Assembly (NCBI RefSeq): GCF_018977255.1
Contig: NW_024704742.1
Span: 4,218,001-4,282,000, forward strand
Length of the DNA: 64,000 bases
Reading direction: 5' to 3'
From: Callorhinchus milii
Taxonomy: Eukaryota
Positions within the stretch are counted from its first letter, which is position 1. Each line of letters starts with the position of its first letter. Below the pieces are notes generated by a model. The model saw only the letters and a program-made list of their open reading frames with translations, did not search any database and was not told where the DNA came from. Positions 11,085 to 64,000 of the stretch are shown here, piece by piece. Made by a program: the position numbers and the translations under genes.

Positions 11085-11690
11085 TGCAGCTCTCGCACCA
11101 ATGCTCTGTGGCAGTGAGCAAAGCAAACCAGATGTTGGGATGTATCAAAAGATCGATGGCAAGCCGAAACAGTGGTGTCATCCTGCCACTGTATACATCA
11201 TTGGCGAGACCATACTTAGAGTAAGTACTGTGCATAGTTCTGGTCGCCGCAGTACAAAAAGGATATTGGAGAAATCGAGAAGATACAGAGGAGGGCAACC
11301 AGAATGATTGAGGGAATGGAAGGCCTGGACGATGAGAAGCAACTGAATAAATTGGGCACGTTCACACTCGAAAAGAGAAGATTGAGAGGCGATATGATTG
11401 CTGTCTTTAAGATTCTAAAGGGGCAAAACAATACAGATCACGACAGGCTGTTTCAACTAGTCCAGAAGAGTGAAACCAGAGGACACGGCCTGCGATTGAA
11501 GGGGAGTAAACTCAGAATGAATCTACGCAAACGCTATTTCAGTGAGCGAATAGTGAACCTGCAGAACAGGCTCCCTAGGGAGGCGGTTGAAGCAGGAAAG
11601 TGTTGATTCTTTCAAACACAGATTAGTTTTTTCTTTTAGGAAATAACATTGTGGGATATAGTACATAGGGAGTTTGGGACATATGTGCAT
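11085..11690 (+). mobile_element. CR1 LINE 3' fragment (second family), preceded by a SINE head at ~11008-11062
   Basis: Frameshifted ORF2: ...RPYL..VHSSGRR.. and LGTFTLEKRRLRGDMIAVFKILKG...TRGHGLRL...FSERIVN. Confidence 0.9.
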
Positions 11691-13185
11691 GCGACCAAAA
11701 TAATGAATGACGGGCTGTTACAAGTTAAGCGAAGAAATATTGTTTCAGAATCCTAAGCTTCAGACACGATACAAATATGATGTTCCTGTTGAAGACAGTC
11801 ATTGAAAGACATCAAAAAAACACTCAACTGCACACTTTTGGATAAATTAGAGTTGTTGAATTGAACACAAAAGAAAATTCTCCAAGCACGATTACAGCTA
11901 TTACGTTTATCACAGCTTCATATTCCTTTTAGAATCACATTTTTTAAAAAAATATTCTGCATTTTGTCTACTGTATGGCTTAACGAGGTTGGTTCATTTT
12001 CCCTGTCTAAGGTTCGAGTGTGGCACCTGATGAAATTCTGAAACCCACATCAGTTCCTGGGTTTATAATGCAGTGGTTCTGAGGGAGTGTTGCATTGTTG
12101 GAGGTGTTAGCGTTCGCATGAGACACTAAAGCAGAAGTCTGATCTGCCTGTCAGCTAAATCTTGGCTCTTTCTACACAGCTTTACTTCGATTAAATATCA
12201 CCTCAACAGTAAACCCTTCAAATAGATCAACAACTACCTCCTCCGTCCAAATCAAATATAATGCCACAACACAAGTACTGTATTCAATCAAGCTGTGCAC
12301 ACACATTAGATGCATCAGTTTTACTCTTAAACACCCAGTTTTTTCAAATTCTGACTGCTCTGAACATTTTCTCCTGAAAGGTCATTTTTAAAAATCCAAA
12401 AGGGAAACGACTTCCATCTGATGCAGTAGAGATCTGTAAATCTGCACCTGTCCTCAAGGTAACCAAAACCTAAACGCTGTGCCTGTACATCAGTTTTCCC
12501 GGGATCGTAACTTATTATCCATGGATTAGTTGGACAGAGAATTCCCAGTGTGCCTATTTTTTAAAATCTTACGTGGCCTCCCCCTCCCCCCAACTCCTCC
12601 GCGCGCAACCACTGCATTATTTACCAATCAAAGAGAGCGGAGATCCAAGATCACAGCCAACGTAGCTCTAAAGGAACCAGGAAGTGCACAAGAACAGAGC
12701 ATGTTGACTTGACTGCTGAAATATTTTCCCCTGTGGGGAAATCACACGTCGACTAGGCGTCTTGTCCAAAGACATTAACTCAATGCACCAAACAGCTCTC
12801 TTAACACCAACTGGGTATTATTATGGTCATTCATTTCATAGCTGTTTGTGGGACACTGCAGCGTGCAAATTAGCTGCAGTATTCGTCCACAAATAGTCGT
12901 TACACTTACAGTAAATCCTGTGAAGTGTTTTGAAATGTTTGGACGTTGTGGTAAGGTGCTGTACCAACTACAAGGACTATTATTTTTAATATTATTTAGC
13001 TCAGATCACTCAAGTTTGTTTCTGTTGGGAAGTGCAACATTAAGGAGCGTTACTGTTCTTCATACCCTCCTCACCATACACACAGCACGTGAGACAACTC
13101 TGTTGTATGAATCTTGCTCATCACAAATGCTGACCTACTTCAGATACTTTCCCAAACATGTATCACAAGTAGCTTTTACTAAGTA

Positions 13186-13595
13186 AACTGAGTAAATTGG
13201 GCATCTTCACGTTGGAAAAGAGACGATTGATTGCTGTCTTTAAGATTCTAAAGGGGCAAAACAATATAGATCACGACAGGCTGTTTCAACTAGTCCAGAA
13301 TAGTGAAACCAGAGCACACGGCCTGCGATTGAAGGGGAGTAAATTCAGAACGAATCTACGCAAACGCTATTTCAGTGAGAGAATAGTGAACCTGCGGAAC
13401 AGGCTCCCTCGGGAGGCGGTTGAAGCAGGAAGTGTTGATTCATTCAAACACAGATTGGATAGTTTTCTTTTAGGAAAAAAAACATATAGTACATAGGCAG
13501 TTCAGCACACGTGCATGCCATCACCAGGAAGGTGGAAGGTGAACTAGATGGACCTTGGTCATTTTTTCTTCCAGCATTTCTCAAGTGCTTATGCT
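13186..13595 (+). mobile_element. CR1 LINE 3' fragment, same family as 11085-11690
   Basis: GIFTLEKRRLIAVFKILKG...FSERIVNLRNRLP, nearly identical to the 11.3-11.6 kb copy. 3'UTR CTAGATGGACCTTGGTC. Confidence 0.9.
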
Positions 13596-13692
13596 TTTGA
13601 ATTGAATGTACTGTACCACACGGAAGTTCTGTGACAACTGTTACCTGCTTAACCAGTGCCTGGTCTTCCGGGCAAATCTATTCTTTTATATT

Positions 13693-14023
13693 GGAGTCCT
13701 GTAGCTCAGTGGTTAGAGCACTCGCTTTGCAAGCGAGAGACCTGAGTTCAATTCCAGGCAGAGGGCGAAACCTTGGGCAAGTTTCCTTACTCCACACAGA
13801 GCCTAATAATAATCCCTCCAAAACCAAAAACAATAATAAATTGGTAATTTTCAATCCACGACTGTTTGTGGGACATTGCTGTGCGCAATTGGCTGCCGCG
13901 TTCGCCCACAAATATACAGTCAATTCACTTTACAGTATATTCTGTGAAGCGCTTTGGGACGTCCTCCCGACGTGAAAAGCGCTATATCAAATGCAAGGAT
14001 TATTATTATTATTATTATTATTA
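13693..14023 (+). mobile_element. Full-length young tRNA(Ala)-derived SINE
   Basis: A box TAGCTCAGTGG, TGC anticodon arm CTCGC-TTTGCAA-GCGAG, B box GAGTTCAATTCC, L2-type tail, (ATT)n. Near-identical copies elsewhere in the window. Confidence 0.95.
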
Positions 14024-14615: not shown

Positions 14616-15326
14616 TGAATACTAAATAATAATAATAATACTGAATAATAATAAAAAAAAACTGCAAAACTTCATTTCACAGAAATATGAAGTTTAATCT
14701 TGGCAGTGAGTCTGAGTCAGACTTGTACAGCCGATGTTTGTGCTCCTTTACGCTGAATGTATATTGCAAACTTGCTTTGGGAACGGATTCTGCAAGTTCA
14801 ATTGAAGTTTCCAGTAAAACCTGGTCCATTTATACCACGGGGATGTTTCAACAGCACTGGATCTACCTGCATTATTTTTAAAATCATAAAATAAGCAAGC
14901 TTGTGATTTGTTGCTGGGGCCCACTATCTTCCCTGTGGTTGGAGCGTAGGACATCAGTGAGAGCAAACCAATTCAGCTCTTCAGCCCACCGCAAACCAAA
15001 ATTAGGGTCTCCGTCATTTCCAACAGAAAACTTGTCGCAGTCAGAGGTACGGAAGCTGATTGTTTGGTTTTAGGCAGTTTCACCACCGCACTCCAGTGAC
15101 AGCGGAAACATTCATCCTACTCTATTTTACTTGCTGAGAGACAAAGAAAATCAAGCTTTCTGCTGTACCACCAATTTATGGCAACTAAAAAGAGCTGCCG
15201 ATCTTGTTCGGAAGCCAGTAATCAGTACTTTATACAAGGAGCTCAGGGCACATGCACAGGACAGACCTCTGTTTTCTCTCCCACTCTATAGCAATAGTGC
15301 ACTAATAGCCATACAACTACATCTGT

Positions 15327-15651
15327 GGAGTCCTGTAGCTCAGTGGTTAGAGCACTCGCTTTGCGAGCGAGAGACCTGAGTTCAATTCCAGGCAGAGGGC
15401 GAAACCTTGGGCAAGTTTCCTTACTCCACACAGAGCCTAATAATAATCCCTCCAAAACCAAAACAATAATAAATTGGTCATTTTCAATCTACGACTGTTT
15501 GTGGGACATTGCTGTGCGCAATTGGCTGCCGCGTTCGCCCACAAATATACAGTCAATTCACTTTACAGTGTGTTCTGTGAAGCGCTTTGGGACGTCCTCC
15601 CGACGTGAAAAGCGCTATATCAAATGCAAGGATTATTATTATTATTATTAT
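15327..15651 (+). mobile_element. Full-length young SINE
   Basis: Near-identical to 13693-14023. Confidence 0.95.
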
Positions 15652-18600
15652 CTGCCCGCTTGCATCATTGCAAAAGGTGAAATTGACTCTGCATTAACCA
15701 GCACACTATAACTGGACATAAAGATGCAGCTGATATTCCACAAACCTTTCACTATATTAATATTGCAGCACAACCTGCCACGCTGCTTCATGTATTGTTA
15801 CATATATGTATAAAAAGTGGTACTTCCACCAGCAGGATATCAGGAAAATTCGTAGCGGTATGATTTCCAGAGGCAGAGACAGTTAAATTGATATCGGCTG
15901 AATTTATAAATAGACACTACTGACACCTTAACATCTGCTGGACTTTGTATTTAAAAAGGAATGACATTTGCATAAAAATATTAAAAGCCGAAGCGCCTCT
16001 AAAATCCATATTAAAGGGTAATTGGAATTTTTAAATATAGAAATTTATACATCTCTGAGGTAAACATATACAGCTCATAGCTTTGATGCTTGTGAAGCGC
16101 AATAAGGAAATATAAAACTAGTATTACACTGCAGTGCAGTGTTAAGGGGCAGAAGCAGAACAGACACTAAAGTTATGAAAGGTATGTTCTCCTTTCACGT
16201 GGAAATAAAACAGGGCCCTTTTTGTTTGGTTGTTGTTCAGTGATCTGTTTTTCTTCAGTTCAGTTATATAATAAAAATCAGGGGAAAAAATGTTTTTAAC
16301 CAATTGAGTTTTTAGAAAGTATTTATTGGTGGAAATTGGAAAACTAGCTCTCATGGTTCTTTTCTGTTTGGCAACAATTCTATTATTCGTCCCCATATTT
16401 TCATTTAAAGCATAAATAAATTTTTCCCCAAAGTATTTCATGTTAATTCCCTGTGTTTCAGGGTATTTTATAGGAACAATTTATAATATGTAGTAACATT
16501 CTTGCTTGTTACCCACATACAAGAGAGGAAAACTAAATTGTATTGTATGCCAGTCCAAGAGAGGTAACAGGGAATAGTAGTTAAGAGATGTCTATAGCCA
16601 AAGTGCAGTATCACACTGGCTTAAACATTTAGCATTGGTGACTGTTACTGTCAATTACAAAAACTTTCAAGATGAGTTTCTTTTGCCATTATAATACGGC
16701 ATATTCCAGCATCATTGTATTTGCTCTTGAATGAGTATTGTGGTTAGTTTAGGCGATTCAACCTTTTTTTAAAAAATTTAATTACATATCATGTTTGTAA
16801 ATACGTTGGAATCATCATATGACGATCTTGGATTTTTATTAAAAACTAGAATGCTGAAAACAACATTCAACATGTGTGGTTGGGATTCCTCAATCATAGC
16901 ACATGCCACATATCACAGCAATTACCACGGCCCACAAGAGCAATTATTTAGACCAGTGGGGTGGACGTGAGATATTATTTTGCCATCTTAACTAATTTGT
17001 AAGACATCAGCTGCGGAAAATCTCATCCATCAAAGTCTCCCATGCCCCAACTCAACTAAGTTTCCCTCATCATCCTGCTCTAACTTTCTATATCATTTTT
17101 AAAACATTTAGTGCTTCCTTTCTTCTCCCTGAGGTCGCCATGCGAAATTTCTATCTCGTCCTTTCATACCAATCTCAATCACAAGGTTCTCTCTTTCTCC
17201 TCAATCAATATCTGCCACCTCCCTCTCCAGCATCATGTTGGTGCCATATGTGCTGCTCTGTATTAATTAATACCATTCCCCTCTTCCACAACACGTTCTT
17301 TCTCTTGGAATCTCTCTCCCTACAAGACCTGAAAAGTAAGTGCAATCAAATAATCACCTTTTTAAATACAGTAGTCGGGACGCTGGTGCCACACCATTGA
17401 AGGACAACAAGTCTTATTGCTCCACTCTGTTGAATTCCTAATCTCAGCCATGCTGCTGTGCAGTGGTGACAAGATGAAGATAGATAGCTCTCCACTGGGG
17501 CAATAGAGAATTTGAACAAGATCGTTCCTCATGTGCTCTCATGCACCTCCTGGCAGCTGGCTCCAAACAACCCTGGCAGTGCTGCCTCCCAAATCTAGAA
17601 CCATTTCAAACAGCGCTTCTACATTAACATGTTTGACATTACCCCAGTAAACAAATAAAGCCGCGCACAATGCTGATCAAGCTCTAGACCCTGGAAAACA
17701 GCACCACAATCAAAAAAGAAATTGTTCCTGGAATGGTATAAATTTTCCTTAGCTGTACTGAGAGGGAAATCTAATTCGCTTTCAGGGTTCGTTCACTATT
17801 TTTCTCTCTGATGATTGTGAATTAAAAGCACTTAACTCTCTGGGAATGTGTGCCATTCTGTATTTACTCTCACCTAAAGTCTAAATGTACAAGTCTAGAT
17901 GTACCCATCTCTAAATAAAATACAAAGCATCACTGTTCTGCATGCTTTAGGCTCTCAATGACTGCCTCATTTCTAGCGCTGTTGATTCAGGAGGAATCAT
18001 GACATACATTGGACGAAAAAAATGCTTCGAAAAGCTCTTAGAAACATTGACCAAAATTTGATGAAGTCATAGTTCGATAACGAAGCAGAACATCAAAATG
18101 GGATCAGCATGAATGTAGCTCCCCGATGGTTTACTTTCCATTTAGTTGGTAGCTGCAGGCAGTGCTTTGTAAGACTATGAGCAATCATTGCAATGTTATC
18201 CTCTTTTATAATCTATCCTGTTTTGGCATTTTTACTGTTGGTAACACCGCGATTCAATTTAAGCAAAACACCTCTGACTGTAAAATATAACTAAATGGCA
18301 GATCAGAATTATTCAGTACAGTTTAGCTGTTGGAATGATTACATTCACTTGTTTACAGGAAGGAGGGCTCAGCAACAGCCATGACAGAAAAGATAATTTT
18401 TGTTTGACAAAATTGGATTTTTTTTATGCGTTAATGGCGTACAACCATTTAATACAAAATATAATTAATTGCAAGTTCAGTTTGAATGTCGTTCCCTTTT
18501 AAGCATTTTAACTTTCAAAGATTTGAAGAATTATTTCAAAGTTGATGCTGGAAGAATGTCGGGCACCTCTGCAATTATTGGGATTGTTTTGTTTCCAATA

Positions 18601-33345: not shown

Positions 33346-34198
33346 TTTCCCCAACATTGCTGGAAGGTCCAGTAGCGAGAAAGGAAACTTTCCACTGTGT
33401 AGCTGCTTGTTGCCCCATGGTTATAAACACCTGGGAGCTTAGGGTAGTACAGAGATCTCTAATTAAACCAGTCTGGAATGCTCTGTACATACGTACAGGA
33501 TCAGACTTCAGATATCGTTTACATATACTCAAGCTTCGCTCTTGTGGCATATCATATCTTCTGAACTCAATGCGATTGCAGCTTGAATCACTCTTGATTC
33601 CCAGTTTTGACAGACTGATGTGAAATGGTTTCTTATTTTATCTGGACATCAAATTATTTCATTGCTTGTTGAGTCATTTTCAAGCCTTGTCCAAGTCAAT
33701 AAATAAACAATTAACTATCAGCAGATCAGAGTACAGTGAAAAAATAACCTCAATTAAGTTAATAAATTGGATGCTTCATGTAATTGTCCAAATTAATACA
33801 TGAACGTTTATCTTTTAAGCAATCTATTTGATCACTTAATATATTTTGTAGCATGTACATCTCTGAAAGCTAGATGCGAAATAATATCAACATAACGTTT
33901 TTCATTCCTTCCTAAATGTTACATGATAAGAAAAGGGCTGTTAGGGTTTCACTGTGTAGATGTCTGGAGTCAGCATTTTGGATAGGTTTTCGCTTCCCAC
34001 TTTAATTGATGTGTTATTAAAACCCAAGCTTGGTATCACCTAAGCACCAGTTGTTGATCGTCTACTCTTGCCTCTGCTGGCCTACTCTTTCAATTTGAAG
34101 AGATCCTCAAAGCATAGAAAACAAGTTAGCAAATTTGGGTTCATCGCTATTTGCCTTGTTTACAATGTGGTGTCCCAACACATTTTTGAAGCTCCTAC

Positions 34199-34790
34199 CT
34201 TCATTGTTCAGCCTCGCAGACGTGTGTATGTTGAACTGCAAGTTTTTATCTTCTTCCTCATTATGTCCTAGGATCATCCAGCTCTTGATTTCATCATCAT
34301 TCTCTTCTTCTGAACTATCGCTGTCCTCTAATATTATAAACTCTTGGATTTGCTGACGTTTCCTGCCCAAACTAGAGTTTGCGGCGATATCTGCCGGAGC
34401 CAATCTGCATTTACTTGAAGTACACAGTCCAGACGTTCTACTGGAATTTGATGCTGAATGGAAGGCATGGTTGCTTGAATGTGATGCAAACTCCTCGATG
34501 GATTGATCTCTTTCTGTAGCTCCAGATTTTGAATCTTTAGAATCCTTGCTGCCATAAACACTGTCATCATCATCGGCAAAGTCTGAAATGACTATCACAT
34601 CAGTATCAGCCTTTTTAACATTGTTTTCGATGAAACTCTGTACTGGAGCATCCACTTCACTCAGATTGGAAGCATAATGCACTTGGCTGTATAACTGGAA
34701 CTCCACATCACTGTCTATTTCTGACTCACTGATCTGCTCACCATACAGGTCATTTTCATAGGCCTCCACATCTTCATAACCACTAAACAT
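34199..34790 (-). CDS. ZCCHC7: Zinc finger CCHC domain-containing protein 7 (Air1/2-like TRAMP component), first coding exon; 197 codons + 1 nt
   Basis: Translation MFSGYEDVEAYENDLYGEQISESEIDSDVEFQLYSQVHYA matches the recalled vertebrate ZCCHC7 N-terminus (MFGGYETIEAYEDDLY...SEVEFQLYSQIHYA); VIVISD and SWMILG motifs follow. Acceptor tttttatctgcAG ends at 34811 and phase-1 donor GAAG|GTAGGA follows 34199. The full exon is 34199-34810 with 20 nt of UTR. Confidence 0.95.
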
Positions 34791-39728: not shown

Positions 39729-39830
39729 CTGTCCGCGCCGCCGCCGCCGCCGCCGCTCGGGGGCCGACCGAAACCGGTCGCCAGCGACGCCGGAGTTTTT
39801 TTTTAAAAAAAAGCAAAACTTCCGGCCATA
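39729..39830 (-). other. ZCCHC7: Putative non-coding exon 1 of ZCCHC7 (5' end approximate)
   Basis: CpG-rich segment with a (GGC)n run ending in donor ACAG|GTCAGT at 39729/39728, about 4.9 kb upstream of the first coding exon. Confidence 0.65.
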
Positions 39831-40097: not shown

Positions 40098-40438
40098 ATA
40101 ATAATAATAATACTACTACTACTACTAATAATCCTTCCATTTGATATAGCGCTGTTCACGTCTTCCAGACGTCCCAAAGCGCTTCACAGAACACACTGTA
40201 AAGTGAATTGACTGTATATTTGTGGGCGAACGCGGCAGCCAATTGCGCACAGCAATGTCCCACAAACAGTCGCGGATTGAAAATGACCAATTTATTATTG
40301 TTTTTGGCTTTGGAGAGACTATTATTAGGCTCTGTGTGGAGTAAGGAAACTTGCCCAAGGTTTCGCCCTCTGACTGGAATTGAACTCAGGTCTCTCGCTT
40401 GCAAAGCGAGTGCTCTAACTACTGAGCTACAGGACTCC
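40098..40438 (-). mobile_element. Full-length young SINE immediately upstream of the ZCCHC7 promoter
   Basis: Reverse complement of the 13693 copy. Confidence 0.95.
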
Positions 40439-40459
40439 ACAATTATTATTATTATTATT

Positions 40460-45769: not shown

Positions 45770-46495
45770 CTGGAATTATTCTCCTTAGAGTAGAGAAGAT
45801 TAGGGAAGATTTAATAGAGGTGTCCACAATTATGAGAGGTTTTGATAGAATAGATAGAGAGAAACTGTTTCCACTGGCAGGTGAGTCGTTAACCAGGGCA
45901 CATAAATTTAAGATAATTGGCAAAAGAACCAGAGGAGAGAGGATGAGAATTTTTTTTTACTCAGAGAGTTGTTACAGTCTGGAATGCACTGCCTGAAAGG
46001 GTGGTGGAAACAGATTCAATAACAACTTTCAAAAGGGAATTGGATAGGTACTTAAAGAGGAAAAAATTGCAAGGATATGGGGAAAGAGCAGGGGAGTGAG
46101 ATTGATTGGGTAACCTGATTGTGGAGTCCTGTAGCTCAGTGGTTAGAGCACTCGCTTTGCCAGTGAGAGACCTGAGTTCAATTCCAGGCAGAGGGCGAAA
46201 CCTTGGGCAAGTTTCCTTACTCCACACAGAGCCGAATAATAATCCCTCCAAAAACAAAACAATAATAAATTGGTAATTTTCAATCCATGACTGTCTGTGG
46301 GACATTGCTGTGCGCAATTGGCTGCCGCGTTCGCCCACAAATATACAGTCAATTCACTTTACAGTGTGTTCTGTAAAGCGCTTTGGGACGTCCTCCCGAC
46401 GTGAAAAGCGCTATATCAAATGCAAGAATTATTATTATTATAACTCTTTGAAAGAGTCGGCACAGGTACTTCTGCGCTGTAATATTCTATGATTC
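45770..46495 (+). mobile_element. CR1 3' fragment split by a young SINE
   Basis: CR1 ORF2 end at 45770-46115; its 3'UTR resumes at ~46442 (AACTCTTTGAAAGAG...ATTCTATGATTC). Confidence 0.88.
46123..46441 (+). mobile_element. Full-length young SINE
   Basis: Near-identical to 13693-14023. Confidence 0.95.
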
Positions 46496-51217: not shown

Positions 51218-52490
51218 AGGGAAGCAAAACCCAATGGCAGAATTGAGAGGAAAAAACGGGTTGAGAGTGGTCGGCCAGAGTGAAAGGGTAATTCAGCTCC
51301 ACTGAGAGAGGAGGTCAGTGTTATTTCCCCCCTTTTTTTTTGCAACTTCCCCAAAAGTTCTGAGACGGTCGGTCGGTCGCTGCTTAAGAGTCAAGTGCAA
51401 TGCGAGCAAAAAGGAGCAGTGGTCCAGCCAGAGGCTGTGTCCCTCTCTCTGAATATCCTCTCCTCTTCACAACGAGGTGAATTACATGTTTCTGGCTCTG
51501 ATCTCCATTGTTTTGTGCACTGAGACACATTCCTGAGCCCCCAAACCACTGAAAAGGAAACTTTAGGCAGAATTAATCACACACACACAGACATAGACAC
51601 ACACATAGACACAGACACACAGACACACACAGACACAGACACACACACACACAGACACACACATACAGACACACACCAAATCCCACCATCCACTCCCACC
51701 ACCCCCCACCACCCTAAATTCTCCCCTGTTTTTTTCTTAAAAAAGTGGGTGCAGGGAGTGCTCGATGGAGAGATGTGGGTACAATCCTTTTAAGAATTGA
51801 GGGGTTTGAAAACTGTCACCATTCACTGCAGGAGGGTTTTTCTCCAGAAAGTGGATGGAAGTGGGTCTTGTCTTCGTGAGGCAAATCCTGTCCTGCAATG
51901 ACCATCTCCCACTCAAATAAACTCATAAAAAGCCACACAACAGGACCCAACACAGTGCGCAGTGGGCAGACAGTTGCTGGACCCCCCCCCCCCACCCACC
52001 ACCACCACCCAACCCCCAAAAAAATAACACAACAAGAGTCGTTGGGGTTTGAGAGGAAAGTTGCCTTGTGTGGAAGGTGACATAATAAGGTTTTATTATT
52101 TTATTATAATTTTATAATTATAATCATTTTATTATGGCTGTAGGTAAAAAAGACTACTACTGGACATTTCTTCGGGAGAATTAGGAGAGGGGAGGGTGAG
52201 AAGGAGGAGGAGGAGGAGAAGTAGGAGAGAGGGAGGGAGGGAAGGAGGGAAGGAGGGAGGGAGGGAGAAAGTGGTGAGAAAGAGTTTTTTAATTATTCAA
52301 GACTTTGAAGCCTGAACTGCTGGGAGAAATGCTTTGATCACGGTGTGTTGTTGCAGTGTCTCACAATCCTCACTCATCCTGGAGGGGAAAGGGGAAAGGG
52401 AAGAGGGAGAAAGCTGTAGAAAGTGGGGTGGAGGTGGGGGAGGGAGTGGAGGGGTGGGGTGGGGGATAACCACAGGACAAACAGACAGAC

Positions 52491-52521
<31 letters not shown>

Positions 52522-52627
52522 CGAGGGCAAAAAAAAAACACACACACACGAGGGGCAGAAAAGAAGTGGAGGGGGAGAGAAGTTGCAGTCTGAAAGTTGC
52601 TGAGAAAGAAAGGAAGGAGAGAGAGAA

Positions 52628-52659
<32 letters not shown>

Positions 52660-52761
52660 GTAGAGGTGGTCAGCAATTGCCTCTGCAGATGTGAGTTTGT
52701 TTTACTTTCTTTTGGGGGCTGTGCCTTTTTGTCATGGTTTTTTTTTCTCTCTCTCTCTATA

Positions 52762-52795
<34 letters not shown>

Positions 52796-52828
52796 CTACT
52801 CTCTCTCTCTCTCTCTCTGTCTCTCCAG

Positions 52829-53121
52829 CGAACAGGACATGATCTCACGTGTAACGAGAGCTCTTTTAGTTCCTTAATCATTTCACGGTTTGTTCAGAGG
52901 CTTTTCTCCACCTAAAACGTTTAGTCTCGGCTCAGTGGACAGCCCCAAAGACACTGCGGGGGTAGCGGAAGAGTCAAATTAACAAGAGCCCCCCTACCCA
53001 CCCCCCTACCCACCCACCCCCCCCAAAAAAAAAAACCCCACCCCTCACCCTCCCAGAGAAAAAGAGAGACAAAAACTTTTGCTGCATTTCTTCCACAAAG
53101 GAGTCAAATCTCAGAACTAAT
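52829..53121 (+). other. PAX5: PAX5 exon 1A 5'UTR with conserved block
   Basis: Contains GAACAGGACATGATCTCAC, TTTAGTTCCTTAATCATTTCACGGT and CCACCTAAAACGTTTAGT, which match the human PAX5 mRNA leader as I recall it. Confidence 0.8.
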
Positions 53122-53167
53122 ATGGAAATGGAAACACACAGCAGCTCGTACAGGAGTTCCCGATCAG
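53122..53167 (+). CDS. PAX5: Paired box 5, exon 1A coding part (MEMETHSSSYRSSRS-G)
   Basis: 46 coding nt ending in phase 1 at TCAG|GTAGGT. Same length, phase and R-x-S-R-x-G ending as recalled human exon 1A (MDLEKNYPTPRTSRT-G). The upstream UTR resembles human PAX5, and PAX5/ZCCHC7 are known divergent neighbours. The paired-box exon is not in the window. Confidence 0.85.
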
Positions 53168-53253
53168 GTAGGTTTGCAAAGCTTTCCACAAAGATATTTA
53201 TATGTGTGTGTGTGTATATATATATAATATATATTATAATATAATATATCAGC

Positions 53254-53292
<39 letters not shown>

Positions 53293-53405
53293 CGCCTGGT
53301 GACAGCTCTGGTGTGTTTCTGGTTAGGAATTAAATAGTTGTCAGTGGTGTAAAATCGGATCGGCAGTTCAGATGTTTTTTTGGGGGTTAAAGAAACAAAA
53401 AAAAA

Positions 53406-53437
<32 letters not shown>

Positions 53438-53715
53438 TAATGCCAAGAGGTGAAAAGGTTGGCTATTGGCCACCTCTCACTGGCCGTGTGGGGGAACGGT
53501 TGGACCCCCACGTTAAGAAACTTTGCAAACTTCTCATCGAAGGTGAATTGGGAGGTCTCCAGGTCAAGTCAAGGCGAGATGTCAGGGCCAAGACACCGAG
53601 TGCTTCTGCCCCATTGCAATGGACGGATGGTCAGGTTCACGTCAATGTTCCTCTGTCACCTCTCTCTGGTCGCCAAAGGGTCGGAGTTAACAGAGATGGA
53701 GAGAAGTGGGGGGAC

Positions 53716-53755
53716 CCAGGTCCAGGTCCAGGTCCAGGTCCAGGTCCAGGTCCAG
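53716..53755 (+). repeat. (CCAGGT)6 hexamer repeat
   Basis: Directly visible. Confidence 0.95.
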
Positions 53756-56700
53756 CCATGTTCTGCTGCTCTCTGCCCCCCCCCCCCCCCTCCCCTCCAC
53801 CCCCAGGATGGAGCTTTGCTATATAAACTTTCCACAAGTCAAGTGTTGGCCAATTTCGAGTCGCATTTTCTGCTTTTTTTTAAAAAAAAAGCCCCCCCCC
53901 CCCCCCCCCACCTCCCACCCCCCATCATTGATCTCCAAACAGATCAATAGACGCTTCTCGTGTCCAATCGGCTGCATAATAATAAAATCTATTTCACCCT
54001 TTTTTTTTTAAACTTTTTTTTTCTTTCCCAATCGTTGACTATCTATCTACTGATATTTGTACCCTGACTGCTGGAATGTGTGGGGGTGTGTGTGGGTGTG
54101 TGTGTGGGTGTGTGTGTGGGGGTGTGTGTGGGGGGGGGGTTTAGTGAGGATTTGGTGTTGATCAGACTGTCCAGACTCATGTGCCGCCGTGTGTGTTATG
54201 TGGTGTTGTGTTGTGTTGTAAACCGTTTAATTTTTGTTCCTGTTTTTTTTTTTCGCGATTAAAACGCAGTGTCTATGTTTTGTGTTGTTGTTTTTTTTGG
54301 GGGGGGGAGGGAGGGGTGTGGTGGGGCAAAAATGGCAGTTTCATGTCCTATGTACCTTTGTGTATTTGTTATCCACTTGATGTCCATTTCGATGGATGGG
54401 TGAGGCAACGCCAAGGCACTGTATGTTATAATATATTACATTATATTATATTATATTATGTATTATATTAGATCAGGAGGTTGCAGTGCTTCTTGTTTCT
54501 TGGCTCACGTCTTTGGGAATGTATTTGATAGTCGTTCTCCCCAACATTTTCTGCTTAAGCGAAGCGCTATTTTATCAAACATAAGATCCTGATCCTGCAA
54601 ACACCTCATTGGGAATAATGAATTGCCCTTTTATTTTTTGGGGGGACTGTCTGGGGATTTATTCTTGAACACTGGACATGAAGTCTGTTTGACGGATCTC
54701 CAAAACAAATAAACAAACAAATAAACAAACAAATAAACAAATAACCAAATAACCAAACGAACAAACGAACGAACAACACAACAAGAGAAAGTTCATTCAG
54801 ACTTTCCTCGGGGGAGTTGTGGGCGCAGTTTCTGGACGAAAAAAAAACACGTCCATTCGGTTTGGGGGTGGGGGGGGGTGGGGGGGGGGTGGGGGGGGGG
54901 GGGGTTGGGGGGGGTTGCGGCACATTGCGGGTTCGACGAATGATTTTTGCAGTAAAACGGTGGAAACACTCGGGTTTTTGTTTTTTCTCTCTCTGACACC
55001 TCAGGGTTCTCGGCGTTGGATTCATTCTGATTTCTTTCTGCTGTCTGTTGCCTCGTCTGCTGCAGCACAGACTGTTGCGTCTTTCTTTGCATTTATTACA
55101 TGTACATATATATATATATAATATATAATATATATGATGCAAACGCTCTTTTGAGCGCAGTATTTTCAAATCCACAGTAGAACCCATTCCTCGGTCTCTT
55201 TCTTTCTTGATGCAACTCCCCCCCCCCACACCCCCCCACCCCCTGCAATATTGCTTTCCCCACGTAAACCCACACTGTTTTTTTTTGCTCAGGATGAACA
55301 TTGCAGATTAAAACGATGGACTCCCCCCCACCCCCCCAACCCCCACCACCACCAATGGATGGTTTTCGGTCGTTGCGCTATTTTTTCAGAGCAGTTTCGT
55401 TCTTTTGCTGCCTGGAAAGCGGACTGGTAACTTATAATAATAATAATAACTTATTAAATAAGGACGTGTGTGTGTGCAGGAGGTTTCAGGAGTCCTGGGT
55501 GGTTCTCACCGTGGATGGAGGTCATTTTCCAGCCCAGTGTTACTCACTGTTTTATGCCTTTTTTATATATATATATACACACACACACACACCCTCTTGT
55601 ATTATTACTTAGCTTTTGCATTGATCACAGCCTAATCTAACTCAAAGTCTTGTTGGGAACAGGTTAGGGCAGGCAGTGTTGTACTTACTGGGAAGGAAAT
55701 GTGTTGGTCAAAGACTCCAGGGGGGTGGGGGTGGTGGTGGTGGGGGGGGGGGCTGTTATCATCTTGGGATGATTTTAAATCTCAGGACTAACACAACACT
55801 GTTGTTGTTTTATATATATATAATATATGTATTATATCAATTCAACAGGTCTTGTGGAGAGATCTTCCTGCAAGTGCTGGACGAAAATAAGCCCTGATTG
55901 AAATATATATATATATCTATATCTATATATCTATATATATGTATTTATATGTATATATTTATATATATTTCTTGAGTTTTTTTGTGTTGCAATGCCTTGC
56001 GATTTGGGCTATTTGACGGGCGGTTCTTTTTGTCGTGGGGGAGAGGGGGAACTTTCTGATAAAAGCATAACTGGGACTGGGGGGAAAAGTCTGGTCCTTT
56101 TCACGCCGTGAGATTATTGTCAGCTTTGGAAAATGATCGCAGTTTCTCCCCCCCCACCACCCCCCAACTCGGTTAGTTCGTGTAAACGAGCAATGAGTGA
56201 GTTTGATCTGTTTAACTGTGTGACTGACTCTCTTTACCCCTCCACTACCCCTCCACCTTGTTGTTTTTTTGTAGTTTCCCCACATTTCCTCTTTCAAGCC
56301 GCAGAGTTTAACGCACAGCAGAACCCAGTCCACTGGCACATTTTTATTTTAATTTTTTTAAATAGATATATAGATATATAAAATATATCTATAATATGTA
56401 TTTTATAAATATATATATTTATATATAAATATATATATATATATATTTATACATATATATTTTATAAATGTATATATATATATAAGCTGCCAGCTCGCAT
56501 TAAAAAGGCTTCGACTCTTATCAATTATTATTCCTTTTATAAATTATACTACGTGTTAAAAAGAAATAAATAAAACACCCCTTTGCGTTATCCCTTCACT
56601 GAAAACACAAAGAGACGGGAAAAGGAATAAGGTAGGGGGGGGGGGGGGGGGGGGGGGTGGGGGTGGGGGGGAGAGAGGCAGAAGAACAGGACCGATCCTT

Positions 56701-57335
56701 TGCTCTATACTTCCTGGAGGATTAAAAAGATGACTTGACCAAACACCCCCCACCCACCCACAACACAACCCCCACCCACCCACCCACCCACCCACCCCCT
56801 CCCCTGTCGCCTCCCCTCCGCACAGTTCAACTTTCGCCAGTTATTGATCAAAATAAAACAAAATTTAAAAAAATAGAGTAAGAGCCCCCAGTTGGTTGAC
56901 CAGACTGACACCAGAATGAATTTAGGCCATTCGTGGGAGGGGGTGGGGGTGGGGGGTGGTGGTGGGGGGGGGGGACATTAGCTGCTTTTCCTCTCTGTGA
57001 CCCGTGAAATAATCTATATCATTGTTTATTCTCAGCTTTGCGATCTGACAGATGACTGTGTGGAAATCCTTTTGTATCAGCACGTGTGAACCACGCTTGT
57101 TTGGGGTGTTTTTTTGGTGGTGGGGGGGGGGGGGGGGGGGGGGTCTGGTTTAAGGTGCTGCTCATTGTGAATTAGGTGACCTTGTTCCTGATGAACTTTA
57201 CACCACTGATTCGCCCATAAATAAATCCTTGGCCACTGTGGATGGATGGATGGATGGATGGAGCCCACTAGTCTCTCTCTCTCCTTCTCACTTGTTTTCC
57301 ATTTAACATCCAGTTATAGATGTATTTCTATAAAT

Positions 57336-57382
<47 letters not shown>

Positions 57383-59407
57383 TTATTGATCTGCCTGATC
57401 ATTTGGAAAGAGATATTTACAGTCGCTTCAATTACTTTATTTCCCTTAACTTTCAGGACGTTTTTGAAAAGGTGCCTCATAATTACTAAAAAGTCGCAAT
57501 CACATAAAAGGACATTTTTTTTCGACCCCCCCCACCACCCCCATTTTTGGGATGTTCACTGCATTTCGCTTGAACTCGGCAAATCAATGAATGAATTTAT
57601 ATCTTTGCCCCCTCTGGCGAGAGGGAAAGATATAATAAATCCGCACGTATTTATTAAAATCCACTCCGCTGGCAAATAAACCCACGTTGCACCTCAGAAA
57701 CCCCAAGGAAAATGTCCTCTGGCAATAGGTGAAAAGAAAAGAAAAAGGAAAGGAAAGATCATTTCCTGGGCTGGAAGTGAAAGCAGGTCAGACAGGAGCC
57801 AGAAAGTCCTGAAATAAACCAGTAGTGATTTCAGGATTCTGTGCTCAGGGACGACTGCATCTTCAGAGCAGACCAGACACCCTAAAAGGTGTGTGTGTGG
57901 GGGGGGGGGGGGGGGGATTACAAATTAAATGAATTCCGAGACAAAACGTCAGCTATGAGTCAATTCTGCTGCACTCTTCGGAAATCTTAACATCTCCAGT
58001 GAATTTGGATTTATATTTTTATTTTATTTTTGGTGGTGGGGGGGGGGGGGGTGGGGGGGGGGGAGAGAGAAAAAAAAACCCTGTGTTGCTGTAATGTGGG
58101 ACTGTACATACAGTAACTGAGCAGGAACAAAGGCAGACAGACAGACAGACAGACAGACGTGTGAAACACGCAGTGTGGAGAGAGTGGGCAGAGACTGTGG
58201 CTCAGAATGTCTCCCCTCTCTCTCTCTGACTTGACATTCATCACATTTGTCGCCTCTTTTTAATTTTGAATGTTTGCTTAAAAATAGCTCCCCCCACCCC
58301 CCTCCTCTCCCCAGCACCTCTCCCCACCACCTCTCTTTAATCAATCGTCTCGTATATCCTTTCATGTGGTGAAATTACTTTGTTTGGGGTCAGTTCGCAT
58401 CTGTTCAGGTTACATACAAACCTGAAACTCAGCTGAAGCCACAGTTTACGATCGATTGCGGTTGATGCCTTGTGACAATTCTTCCCACGGTGTTGTTTTT
58501 TTTCTTCCCAACCCCCCCCCCCCAAAAAAAAAAAAAAGTTTTCGAAGAGGCAAAGGGCTGAAATGTTGTCAGTGTTGGGCCAAGTTGCTTAATCAGTGTC
58601 CCGTCAGCGGAGGAGGGCGTGTGTCCAACTTCACAGTTACGCGGAGCAGATGGTGAAACAGGAATTTGTCAGTTTGTGGGGATTTATAACGGTGACCGTT
58701 GTGGATTTAAGGCAATCGAAGCCATCCCATCCCATCCCAGGGACAGGTGCAGCACATTGCACACTGTGGGATTGGGATTGGGATTGGGATGGGGCTGTGT
58801 GTGTGTGTGTAGGGGGGGGGGGACCATCGCAATTGGATGAAAGGGGGCGATAATTCACTGCACAGCCAACGCTGTCATTTTCGTTGATCGCATTGAAGGA
58901 AAAATACTGTTTGAAAATCACGAAAGTGGCAACTTGTTGGCAGACAACACCCTGTTTCAGAGGCAAAACAAGACTGGGGGATCAAATTTGGAAAAGGAGC
59001 AATTTTCCCTCATCTAAATTCAAGAGCTGTATGTACACATGCAGTGTATATATATATATACATACACATATATATATATTTAATACATATATCCAGGTGT
59101 ATATATATATATATATATAAAGCGTGCTTTATGCTGAGATTGTTCATTCTGGGGTTTGCTCTCCCTCAATAAAACCTAAGCTTTATTGACAAAATATCCT
59201 GCAGGGAAGCCCACCCCCCCCCACACACACACACACCCACCCACACAAATAGAAACCCATGTACAGTATCACCTCGTCTCATTTCCGATGTGGAAAGTAA
59301 ACATCGCCTCTTGAAAGTTGGTGACATTTAGGGTGAGTGTCAGGGACTCGTGGCTGCGGGTAATTACACACAGACACACACACACACACAGACACTTGGC
59401 GATTGAC

Positions 59408-59446
<39 letters not shown>

Positions 59447-61080
59447 TTCCACTGTTTAAACTGACTGCTGACAAGACGGAGACTGAACGACACTATTCCT
59501 CCTTGCACATTTATTTTGCATTTTGAAACGATTCTCGGGGTCCACCCCCCCCCCCCCCCACCCCCCACCCCCCCATCCCCGGGTTGATTGATAGGCGACT
59601 CTGCCGTTATTGTCTGGGCTGAAGTGAAACACTAATAATCACGGGTGGCAATGACTAATCTCACGGAGGGGAACATATTGACACGAGCTTTGATCAGCGT
59701 TATGACTTAACACGAGGTCCGCCGTCCCACAGGATGACGAATAGCATTTAACAAGAAATCCTAAACGCAAAGAAAGGTTTCTTGCACGAATTCGGATTGA
59801 GGAAGGTTAGGCTGCAGGAGAGGAACTGCTGAAGAGAGAGAGAGAGAGAGAGAGAAGGGGGGAGAGAGGGGGAGAGGAAGAAGGGAGGGGTTGGGGGTGA
59901 GAAGTTTGGGCACAAGAGGAATGGGTGTCCAAGAGGAAAGGTACCATTAACTGTGCGCGAAAGAAAATGGGGAGTAAAAGTCGAAATCGAGAGAAATTCA
60001 AATTAAAAGGGAGATTGGGGGGGGGGGGGAGGAGAATGGTGATGGTTGGGGTGGGGAGGGGAGGGGGGGATAGGGAGTGAGTTCGGGTGTGAAACATGTG
60101 CAGGAGAGAAGATCCTGTAGAGGGGAGGGGAGGGAGGGAGGGAGGGAGGGAGGGGAGGGGAGGATGGTGAAAGAGGAGAAAGTTCCAGGCAGGAAAGAGT
60201 TGGTGAGAGTTGTTGCTGATGCCCTCTATCGAGGTTCCTCTGCACAGCCTTTGCACAACCAGGGCTGGGGCTGTTCACAAGGGGGAGGGGGGGGGGGGGG
60301 GGCAAGGAATTAACTGGGAAGCCGAGGGTAGAAGAAGGGTTTGTAGACCAATATGGACCAAAGCTGGACAAGGTGCATGACTCACCTCACACAGGGTGAC
60401 CAAAGGAGTCGTGATCAAGGCACAAGGTCCATCTGATCCCAGTTCTGCAAGAAATGATGACTTGATTTTATTTTTTTGCAAAAAAAAAGAAAAGTAATTA
60501 TTATTATTATTTTTTAAAAAAACCACAACGACTTGTGGGTGGGGGGGGGTCACCCCGGTGCAATATTAACACTCTCTGACTTGGTCACCCTGGTATGGGT
60601 TAAAGTTGACCCATTACTTTCTCTTTCTGTAAAATAAGGGTAATAAGTAAGTGTCACGCGTTGAAACGGCGGTACAGCCGAGGAGTGGGTGGTGTGGGGG
60701 GTGGGGGGTAGGGGGGAGTGGGGCAGTGGGGTGGTGGGGGGGGGGGGGTGTCAAACACCTTACATACACACCTTGCACCAACCTGTTGTTACCGAAGCAA
60801 CAAAATCAGGTCAGAGATTCAGGTGAAATATGTGTTCCCCTTTCTTTAACCCTATCAACTATTGTAATTACCCCCCCACCCCCCACCCTCTCCCCACCCT
60901 CACCCCACCCTCACCCCCACCCCCTGTCTTGGCCCTTTACCGTCCAATTTAACAATCGCGTAAATAACTATTAATTTTGACAGCTTAACTCGTTGCTCAT
61001 GAATTCTGGAGACAATTTAATTCCATTTTCGTGCCATTTACACGACATAGCAGCGGTATAGCCGATGCCATACGCCTTAT

Positions 61081-61266
<186 letters not shown>

Positions 61267-62683
61267 CTGCTGATCTCTCCCACTGTTGCTTAGGTTGGTG
61301 CAAACTGCACGCCGTCTGTGCATTGCAACGGGATATGTATTACACAGCCGATGCGTATGTGTTTCGTTAACCTTTCGTGGGCAGATCTCGAGGGCATTCG
61401 GTGAAACCTTATCCCCCAGATCTCACCTGCATTTCGGGTACCTTGAGGTTGTTTCCCAGTCACAATTATCTCAGTCCCTGTAATTTTTGCCTCTTCTAAT
61501 TGTCCCTCCGAAGTACCCCCTGCCTCCCTGTCACATTCCCCTCTGCTATCAAACCCAATCCTGTGTTACATGGCATCAATCCTGTCCTCTGTACATCTGA
61601 CATCCTCTCCCTTTTTTTGTTTCTAAACCATCCGACTAAAACGACTGTACGATCAATACAACCGCCCGAGTCAATGCTGCCCCCACTATCTTTTTTAAAA
61701 AATATTATATTGTAAAAAAAAATCACCCTTTACAGCGTGGGAGAAAATTAAAAGAGTTTTGCGCCAATGTACTGTTGACATTTAGAAGGCGACCCTCGTA
61801 TTGATTTTAGAATAGATCGCACAGTCTTCGAGTGTGAGAGGCAAATTTCATGAAACAAAAAACACAAGTGGTGAAGTCAGCACCTCACCTGCTTCAACCA
61901 AAGCCCCACAAGTCAGTGGTCAAAGCACTGGTTTAAACATTAGAAATTTGTAACGTCGAGAGCCTTAGGATTTATGATGTTTCTCACATCACGATGATGT
62001 GTCTTTGAATTGGATCCTGTAAATGAAAGATTTCGTTGACGAAATCTTTATGATTTGATGGGTGCACGAGAGGTAAGGAACGTCGCCAATGCAACCCTGC
62101 TCCTTAAATCCCAAATAGTTGGCCTGGAATTGTAATAATCTCTGAAAGTCAGTAGCAAAAGCCATCTTCGGTTCTGTGGGATCATTTCGGCACGTTTCGA
62201 GAAATTGCTTGAAACGTGAGGCGTCAGTCGGTGAAAGGGTCGAGGATCCCAGAAGAAATATATTTCCTATTTGCTTTGCTTTATTAAGGAAGAAAGAAAG
62301 AAAGAGAGAGAGAGAGAAAGAAAGAAAGAAAGAAAGAAAGAGAGAAAGAGGCAGTCATCTCAATCTGGAACTCAAGAAGACAATGATGAAAAAGGCAGCC
62401 CTCAACCCTTGGCTCTCTTTTTTTTTTTTTTGGGGGGGGGGGGGGGTGGGTGGTCTTCCCTTTATCATCGAGAGGGATGGCAGAGAGGGATGGCAGAGAG
62501 GGTGGTCAGTGTCCAGATCACTGGGATTTGGAAACATCACACCAAACGCACCACACCGCACGCAGGGGTTAAACGGCAAGAGGATCTCTGTGATGTGACA
62601 CAGACCAGAGAGTGCCCCCACACCGTCCATTTGACTAGAGATTCACTGGGGTCTGTTTAATGGTTACCCAATCTCCCCCCCCC

Positions 62684-62716
<33 letters not shown>

Positions 62717-64000
62717 AGGACAGGTTAATGATTTCCACTGCTGGGGATATCAAGGTGGCCTTATTTTATTAGACATACAGGCGCAGCAAATGGAAATAGT
62801 CACGTTGCGCCCTTTATAAAGTCGACAGATAATACATCGCTAAGGTTGTTCTTAAAGTTGTTTTTTTTTTTTTGGGGGGTGGGGGGGGGGGGGCAGAAAC
62901 GGTGGTCCAGTTACTCCACAGATGGGAATCGGTGAGTTCACTCATTGCGACAGATGCCCCATCGCAGGAACCTGTCGCTGACTTTGATGTCAGATGGAGA
63001 TGGGGTTCCAGCGCTGTGAATGGCTCGTTGGGGGCAGTGCAATGGGGCATTGGTACTGAGATCTATCCCCCCCCCCCCCCACCCACCCCCCCCCCCCCAC
63101 CCCCACCTCACTGGTTAGGGGTTCAACATCGAAAGCAAATTACCGAACCACATTCATTCAATTGTAAGAAAAGGACTAACAGTTACATGGTTCTCTTTAG
63201 TAAACCGCTGTCTTGGCAGTGGTGGTGGTGGGGGGTGGGATGGGGGTGGGATGGGGGGTGGGATGGGGGGGGGGAGGTTATGCGTTATGGTTTATATTCC
63301 TGGTTTAATATTGACCTGATTTTATGAACTCTCGCCTTTAGCACTCCATCGCATATATCTGTTCAGAAAATTCGAGCCTCCTCGCAAGTTTGGACGCTTC
63401 GAGAGCCTTCTGTTACATTGCACTGAGAGAACTGTTTGGATTCTGGGCCGAAAGAGAATAAAATCCATGTGTTGGGCTTTTCTGGAATGCTGAGGACCAT
63501 TGGATCAGCAACTCGGGTCATCGTACGTGTTGTAGCAGAGTCGTAATCCATTCATTTCAATTCCACAGCATCTTATAAGGGATGTGTTATTTTTTTTCCC
63601 CCCCGCCCTGACTTCTAGAAATACTGTAGAATTCTGGAATAGATAGAATTAAAAACAGTGCATCCGAGAAGAGATCGGATCGCCCGAGCGATGTTTAAGC
63701 TTCGTTATGTGAAGTCCGATTTGGAAAGTTTTTTTAAAAATATAATTGCATTTTACAGTCGCTGCATTGTGACATTCGTGGGTTTATGATTTGCTTTGTG
63801 GCTGCGCCCTCCAAACGATACACAAAACAAAACTGTAAATAACCTCCATTCCCCCCCCCCACCGGACCTGGAGTATAGTATATCAGGTGTTTACAGAGCC
63901 ACATATATATATATATTATATATAATCATCCAGTTTCGGAAACGTGATGAGTTGCTAATTGCCCATTATTAATAACTATTCGGGTGTTTTCTGAACACGT

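What the first reader, a model, noticed from the sequence alone, without database searches (positions are those of the whole stretch)
52829..53173. Mammalian-type PAX5 exon 1A, missed by the ORF track, in an apparent cartilaginous fish
Seen: a 46-nt phase-1 coding exon with a GTAGGT donor and a distinctive leader. Knowledge: mammalian PAX5 has alternative first exons 1A (MDLEKNY..., the main B-lymphoid start) and 1B (MEIHCKH...), and many fish/amphibian proteins are annotated with the 1B start. Inference: 1A dates to the jawed-vertebrate ancestor, and its UTR is better conserved than its peptide, pointing to selection on a regulatory DNA/RNA element.
Basis: partly seen in the sequence, partly recalled or inferred. 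Interest (0 to 1): 0.7.

Follow-up and report, generated by a model that had tools for sequence, protein, structure and literature searches.

The report
Elephant shark PAX5 exon 1A
This is the elephant shark's copy of the upstream first exon of the B-cell master gene PAX5; it is already in the public annotation, but it shows that this exon, once described as a mammalian invention, goes back to the first jawed vertebrates.

Summary
Confirmed, but already annotated. The window is Callorhinchus milii (ZCCHC7 exon 100% identical). Bases 53122-53167 are a 46-nt phase-1 coding exon with a GTAGGT donor. RefSeq XP_042192453.1 (Pax-5 isoform X1) starts with exactly this peptide followed by the paired box; isoform X2 uses exon 1B, which lies outside the window. 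1A-type starts are annotated in 11 of 17 listed chondrichthyan species and in bichir, sturgeon, teleosts, amphibians, reptiles and birds, against a published table calling 1A mammal-only (PMC6132355). The leader claim holds for a roughly 100-nt block (52829-52930): three published chicken and mouse primers match 58 of 68 bases in order, versus 11 of 23 in the coding part. The block folds no better than shuffles, so a DNA element at the transcription start is likelier than an RNA structure; a 12-codon upstream ORF is a rival. Splicing and B-cell use were not shown here. TATA and EBF motifs of the mammalian promoter were not found. No earlier scan finding covers PAX5. Bolder lead: the exon may be paralogous to the PAX8 start.

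The parts
52829..52930 (+). Conserved block at the 5' end of the exon 1A leader (about 100 nt), matching the chicken and mouse exon 1A start region
   Evidence: Primer matches 19/22, 16/20, 23/26, collinear (primers)
52839..52877 (+). 12-codon upstream ORF inside the block; its ATG is also present in the chicken primer
   Evidence: use untested
52829..53121 (+). Presumed 5' UTR of the 1A transcript (5' end inferred, not mapped); 52990-53050 is a C-run/A-run tract; a weaker collinear chicken match at 52963-52989 (18/27, not above chance)
53122..53167 (+). Coding part of exon 1A: 46 nt, phase 1; two in-frame ATGs (53122, 53128), both with purine at -3 and G at +4
   Evidence: identical to the N-terminus of P0314, XP_042192453.1
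53168..53173 (+). Splice donor GTAGGT preceded by CAG; start of intron 1
   Evidence: junction inferred from the RefSeq model
52691..52828 (+). Possible 138-nt upstream intron (GTGAGT ... pyrimidine microsatellite, CAG) ending exactly where the conserved block starts; speculative
   Evidence: 19 GTRAGT on the + strand in 64 kb, about 4% chance per 140 nt
34200..34790 (-). First coding exon of the head-to-head neighbour ZCCHC7 (synteny and species marker)
   Evidence: 100% over 197 aa to P0001

Best explanation
52829-53173 is the elephant shark ortholog of PAX5 exon 1A, the upstream one of two alternative first exons. Shown: the exon, its donor, its place beside ZCCHC7, a RefSeq model joining it to the paired box, and a sister model using exon 1B. 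Inferred: an upstream promoter starts transcription near 52829; a leader of about 290 nt precedes ATG 53122 (or 53128); the donor at 53168 splices over exon 1B to exon 2. The two proteins differ only in the first 15 versus 14 residues, so the exon's main job is to give PAX5 a second, separately controlled promoter, most likely the B-lineage one as in mammals (about 65%; untested in shark). The ~100-nt block is most likely a DNA element at or just behind the transcription start (about 55%, versus 20% upstream-ORF control and 25% other).
For: P0314 starts with the window peptide then GHGG; P0300 starts with the 1B peptide; the two are identical after the first exon. Both PAX5 models and ZCCHC7 list the same 139,202,109-base longest contig, and in bamboo shark the two genes have adjacent locus tags chiPu_0011674 and chiPu_0011675. 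In the solved PAX5 chain 1K78_A the G of GHGG is residue 16 and P0314 aligns 1-149 without gaps. Arg11 is present in 35 of 35 distinct 15-residue 1A-type peptides (Arg14 and position 15 were part of my filter, Arg11 was not). Elasmobranch 1A peptides are 13 residues and align from position 3, where C. milii has its second Met, an intermediate state. Primers labelled 'TSS' (chicken, PMC4301804 supplement 5) and position 0 (mouse, PMC6132355 supplement 2) map to the block. The block folds worse than shuffles (z +1.66; 194 of 200 fold at least as well).
Against: The junction rests on a predicted RefSeq (XP_) model whose read support I could not see. Peptide identity to bony vertebrates is only 4-6 of 15. 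No TATA-like word lies between 52124 and 53121 and no EBF consensus with up to one mismatch between 44568 and 59724, unlike the mammalian promoter described in PMC2504290 and PMC4301804; the sequence just upstream of the block is microsatellite, and the upstream mouse and chicken primers tested did not match (12/17, 17/25, at chance). A possible acceptor at 52828 means the exon may not be the first exon here. No 1A-type start among the listed proteins of coelacanth (0 of 3), gars (0 of 5), salamanders (0 of 4) or Xenopus tropicalis (0 of 3); these lists are partial.
Confidence: 0.92

Rival explanations
1. Same exon, but the leader block is conserved for post-transcriptional control: the 12-codon upstream ORF (52839-52877) or a protein-binding site dampens PAX5 translation.
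For: The upstream ATG sits in a 17-base run identical to the chicken primer; it is the only ATG between 52829 and 53121.
Against: No stable fold (z +1.66 and +1.91); no Rfam family reaches its gathering score in 52000-54000 (0 of 28 listed); if transcription starts downstream of 52839 the ATG is not in the mRNA; conservation continues past the uORF stop to 52930. A search for PAX5 + uORF + leader gave 2 general reviews, seen as listings only.
Confidence: 0.2
2. In the shark this is an internal exon: a non-coding exon ending at 52690 splices to an acceptor at 52828, so the promoter lies further upstream.
For: GTGAGT at 52691, pyrimidine tract and CAG ending at 52828, exactly where conservation starts; no TATA-like word near the block.
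Against: The pyrimidine tract is a (CT)n microsatellite; a donor-like word within 140 nt has about 4% chance and was noticed after the fact; chicken and mouse primers label the homologous block as the start region.
Confidence: 0.12
3. The shark exon is not orthologous to mammalian 1A: it is a chance ATG-donor pair or an independently gained first exon.
For: Low peptide identity (5 of 15 to the primate peptide); only a predicted model.
Against: Same length and phase, Arg11/Arg14 pattern, collinear leader matches to chicken and mouse, 1A-type models in 10 elasmobranch species and all main bony lineages.
Confidence: 0.04

Closest known systems
C. milii Pax-5 isoform X1, RefSeq XP_042192453.1 (P0314)
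   Same: Identical first 15 residues; this window exon is its first coding exon.
   Different: Nothing; the record is a prediction, and I could not see its UTR or exon coordinates.
Mammalian PAX5 exon 1A / PAX5A (BSAP), PMC6132355 Table 1 and PDB 1K78_A
   Same: 15 codons plus one base, joined to GHGG; M-[DE]-x-[DE] start and Arg11/Arg14; leader block matches a mouse primer 16/20; alternative to exon 1B.
   Different: 4-5 of 15 residues identical; second in-frame Met at position 3; no TATA or EBF consensus found; 1B lies more than 10.8 kb downstream (about 7 kb in mouse); B-cell restriction untested.
Chicken Pax5 exon 1A (PMC4301804, PMC5737561)
   Same: Transcribed alternative first exon in a non-mammal; TSS primers match 42 of 48 bases.
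   Different: Coding primer matches 11 of 23. The primer over the chicken 1A ATG is labelled +1.2k, so the spacing from block to ATG may be longer than the shark's ~290 nt (unresolved).
Elasmobranch 13-residue 1A starts (e.g. P0334 basking shark, P0330 stingray, P0321 catshark)
   Same: Same junction to GHGG and same R-x-x-R-S-G end.
   Different: Two residues shorter, equal to starting at the second ATG (53128).
PAX8 N-terminus (PDB 2K27_A), smelt Pax-2a start (P0083), unnamed invertebrate-type Pax2/5/8 (P0168)
   Same: Short N-terminus ending R-S directly before GHGG; ray 1A and PAX8 share SIRSGHGG.
   Different: 7-8 residues instead of 13-15; too short to prove homology; exon borders not seen.

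Membership tests
PAX5 exon 1A (orthologous exon) | Short first coding exon, 15 codons plus one base, joined in phase 1 to the paired-box exon | tested here: met
   (46 nt, donor); P0314 N-terminus; G16 in 1K78_A. Junction from a predicted model.
PAX5 exon 1A (orthologous exon) | Belongs to the PAX5 gene, not PAX2 or PAX8 | tested here: met
   P0314 named Pax-5, aligns best to 1K78; ZCCHC7 head-to-head in the window. The mammalian PAX5-ZCCHC7 neighbourhood is recalled; bamboo shark locus tags are adjacent.
PAX5 exon 1A (orthologous exon) | Alternative to, and upstream of, an exon 1B (MEIHCK-type) | tested here: met
   Isoform X2 (P0300) carries 1B; 1B is absent from the whole window, including the ZCCHC7-to-1A interval, so it must be downstream.
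PAX5 exon 1A (orthologous exon) | Leader homologous to the tetrapod exon 1A start region | tested here: met
   3 of 4 leader primers above chance, collinear; no full-length alignment was possible.
PAX5 exon 1A (orthologous exon) | Is the first exon of its transcript (start at its 5' end) | not testable with these tools
   Needs 5' RACE, CAGE or raw RNA reads; possible acceptor at 52828.
Mammalian-type P1A promoter (not filed as a member; works-like claim only) | B-lineage-restricted activity | not testable with these tools
   Pax5 marks nurse shark B cells (PMC10529500 passages) but isoforms are not separated there.
Mammalian-type P1A promoter (not filed as a member; works-like claim only) | TATA-containing promoter (PMC2504290) | tested here: not met
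   Only TATA-like words in 52001-53121 are at 52105-52119, in an AT-rich repeat about 700 nt upstream.
Mammalian-type P1A promoter (not filed as a member; works-like claim only) | EBF1 site about 1.1 kb upstream (PMC4301804) | tested here: not met
   No match to a recalled consensus with up to one mismatch between 44568 and 59724; 18 in the window against 23 expected. A consensus scan can miss real sites.
Structured cis-regulatory RNA | Fold more stable than shuffles or an Rfam match | tested here: not met
   z +1.66 and +1.91; 0 of 28 Rfam rows reach gathering score. Covariation not testable without orthologous DNA.

The most novel reading that the evidence does not exclude
The two-first-exon design is older than PAX5 itself. 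The ancestral Pax2/5/8 gene had a 1A-type first coding exon (ending R-S/T before GHGG) and gained a 1B-type one before the vertebrate genome duplications; PAX8 kept the 1A type, PAX2 mainly the 1B type, and PAX5 kept both, turning 1A, with its 100-nt start element unchanged since the shark-human split, into the B-cell switch. In catsharks 1A can also splice into the front of 1B, giving a protein with both N-termini.
Probability: 0.3. Interest if true: 0.55.

Novelty: already known. Interest (0 to 1): 0.3.

Why it matters
The exon is in RefSeq for this species, so it is not a discovery. What is useful is the comparison: the one library paper that tabulates exon 1A across species (PMC6132355) reports no hits in Xenopus, zebrafish, fugu or lamprey and says PAX5A 'appears later, with mammals'. 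The database record shows 1A-type starts across jawed vertebrates; the peptide changes too fast for a peptide search (5 of 15 shark-primate, against 11 of 14 for 1B). This dates the promoter to the origin of immunoglobulin B cells and picks out a 100-nt block as a small, testable candidate for its oldest control element.

Tried and rejected
No whole genome is held for the window. Sequencing runs: no RNA holder listed (12 rows, 8 of them small shares of 0.06). Four runs were laid: X3, X6 and X8 laid nothing, which can be a filter effect; X9 gave two contigs identical to the window with no joints. None of this bears on expression. A 29-nt word from the leader found nothing in metagenome contigs. 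The paired-box pattern found nothing in viral or prokaryote contigs and 89 loci in metagenomes; none resembled window 52001-64000 by blastn. The 20-residue exon frame hit nothing in PDB, and a 41-residue frame ending in the exon hit nothing among cluster representatives (3 candidates); that blank was misleading, because isoform X1 is hidden behind representative X2. A paper search for leader words gave 4 unrelated listings. Rfam rows are microsatellite artefacts. The ATG-like word at 62791 is not exon 1B (stop after 9 codons, read; no MEIH in six frames). The ESM Atlas could not name the organism of P0168. Four of eight primers had no match above chance, and one was collinear but at chance level. 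Not seen: the 2004 skate paper on B- and T-cell regulators (reference only), the 2011 chicken 5'-structure paper and a 2001 report of a repressor element in the human 1A UTR (both recalled; one search found no library paper with those terms). Any of them may already state part of this.

Full report
Observation. The + strand has an ATG at 53122 and a CAG/GTAGGT donor with the last exon base at 53167: 46 nt, reading MEMETHSSSYRSSRS plus one base. A second in-frame ATG lies at 53128. A six-frame motif search and tblastn found neither a paired-box exon nor exon 1B in the window (at 15 residues the 1A exon itself is also too short for that tblastn).

Organism and locus. The ORF at 34110-34790 (-) is 100% identical over 197 residues to Callorhinchus milii ZCCHC7; the next hits are sharks at 35-47%. 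ZCCHC7 and the exon point away from each other. That PAX5 and ZCCHC7 are head-to-head in mammals is recalled; the adjacent bamboo shark locus tags for the two genes agree.

Identity. I reached PAX5 proteins indirectly: a paired-box exon from a metagenome locus was used against PDB and the representative library (best 150 of 2344), then a parrot PAX5 region against the named database (best 120 of 1683). The C. milii cluster has 2 members: XP_042192453.1, isoform X1, begins with the window peptide followed by GHGG; XP_042192456.1, isoform X2, begins with the 1B peptide; they are identical after the first exon. So the exon is already annotated. These are predicted models; I did not see their read support.

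Distribution. Of 27 chondrichthyan proteins listed (15 of 32 shown for the largest cluster), 11 join a 1A-type start directly to GHGG and 3 join it to the front of 1B; 11 of the 17 named species show the direct form. 1A-type starts also occur in bichir and reedfish, sturgeon and paddlefish, mormyrids, carps, frogs, a caecilian, alligator, turtles, lizards, birds and mammals. None was seen among listed proteins of coelacanth (0 of 3), gars (0 of 5), salamanders (0 of 4) or X. tropicalis (0 of 3); the lists are partial, so this is weak. Among 35 distinct 15-residue peptides Arg11 is invariant (not filtered for); the shark peptide is 4-6 of 15 identical to the other 34, while its 1B peptide matches the human one in Table 1 of PMC6132355 at 11 of 14 (counted by eye). 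Elasmobranch peptides have 13 residues and align from position 3, where C. milii has its second Met: plausibly a Leu-to-Met change in early chondrichthyans followed by loss of the first ATG (inference).

Leader. No orthologous DNA could be fetched, so I used published primers: 6 of 44 in PMC4301804 supplement 5 (chicken) and 2 of 192 in PMC6132355 supplement 2 (mouse), picked by me, the start-region ones after seeing a resemblance. Best ungapped match in the whole window, both strands: chicken TSS pair 19/22 at 52829-52850 and 23/26 at 52905-52930, facing each other (0 of 200 shuffles each); mouse position-0 primer 16/20 at 52877-52896 (2 of 200; this primer set was partly designed on conserved regions). 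A further chicken primer had its best match collinear at 52963-52989 but at chance level (18/27; 69 of 200). The remaining four had no match above chance; forced onto the ATG, the chicken coding primer gives 11/23. So the first ~100 nt are about 85% conserved and the coding part about 48%, on small samples. The block does not fold (z +1.66; whole leader +1.91) and no Rfam family reaches threshold. It holds a 12-codon upstream ORF (52839-52877) whose ATG is in the chicken primer. TATA-like words occur only about 700 nt upstream and no EBF consensus lies nearby.

How it most likely works. Shown: exon, donor, synteny, annotated splice to the paired box, sister 1B isoform, conserved block. Inferred: an upstream promoter starts near 52829 and the transcript skips 1B. 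Because the proteins differ only at the tip, and the mouse isoforms both drive B-cell differentiation (title of PMC6132355), the exon mainly supplies separate transcriptional control. In mammals 1A is B-lineage-restricted (PMC6132355, PMC9456430 passages) and nurse shark B cells express Pax5 (PMC10529500 passages), so a B-lineage role is likely (about 65%) but untested. The block is probably a DNA element at the start site; upstream-ORF control and an upstream non-coding exon are the rivals.

Literature. PMC6132355 (passages, Table 1, supplement 2) says PAX5A appears with mammals. PMC4301804 (passages, supplement 5) and PMC5737561 (passages) show chicken 1A transcripts. PMC2504290, PMC9456430, PMC13670022, PMC4034164 and PMC10529500 were seen as passages, PMC4488758 as passages and section 11; none of what I saw dates exon 1A. 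Searches found no paper placing 1A in cartilaginous fish, and only PMC6132355 prints any of six 1A/1B peptide words. The library lacks most subscription journals, and older skate and chicken papers may already say this. Other supplements of these papers were not read. Earlier scan findings hold nothing on PAX5.

Bolder reading. PAX8 (2K27_A), a smelt Pax-2a model (P0083) and an unnamed invertebrate-type Pax2/5/8 (P0168) also end their short N-terminus in R-S before GHGG, and a ray 1A peptide shares SIRSGHGG with PAX8, while 1B resembles the PAX2 start. The 1A type may therefore be the ancestral first exon of the subfamily (about 30%); the match is only 2-4 residues.

Verdict. Real, correctly identified, already annotated. 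Interest 0.3, for correcting a published date and isolating a testable 100-nt element.

Noticed in passing
Proteins P0316, P0319, P0328 (Scyliorhinus canicula), P0325 (Chiloscyllium punctatum): Catshark RefSeq isoforms splice exon 1A into an open stretch in front of the 1B ATG, giving 1A peptide, a 22-residue linker and the 1B peptide in one frame; the linker is nearly identical in bamboo shark. No match to the linker in this window.
   Followed up: partly
window 53122-53130: Two in-frame ATGs in good context; the second gives a 13-residue exon equal in length to the shark and ray form.
   Followed up: yes
window 52691-52828: GTGAGT donor-like site, CT microsatellite and CAG form a possible 138-nt intron ending at the first base of the conserved block.
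   Followed up: partly
P0083 (Osmerus mordax Pax-2a), P0168 (unnamed): Short starts beginning MPH and ending RS before GHGG, like the PAX8 N-terminus.
   Followed up: partly
window 39730-39830 (-): GC-rich stretch with a donor-like end, probably the non-coding first exon of ZCCHC7 in its CpG island; about 13 kb from exon 1A.
   Followed up: no
window 62720-62860 and 59480-59720: Non-repetitive stretches in PAX5 intron 1 among microsatellites; candidates for conserved non-coding elements, by eye only.
   Followed up: no
window 52600-52826 and 53248-53443: Facing (GA)n and (CT)n microsatellites flank the exon on both sides and produce spurious miRNA-family Rfam rows.
   Followed up: yes
P0320, P0329, P0316: Several elasmobranch models shorten exon 1B to four residues (MEIH) before the paired box, implying an internal donor in 1B.
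   Followed up: no
window 11238-11606, 13173-13496, 13601-13975, 15298-15711, 40156-40458, 45961-46353: LINE reverse-transcriptase-like fragments and recurring SINE-like copies (family names not tested).
   Followed up: no
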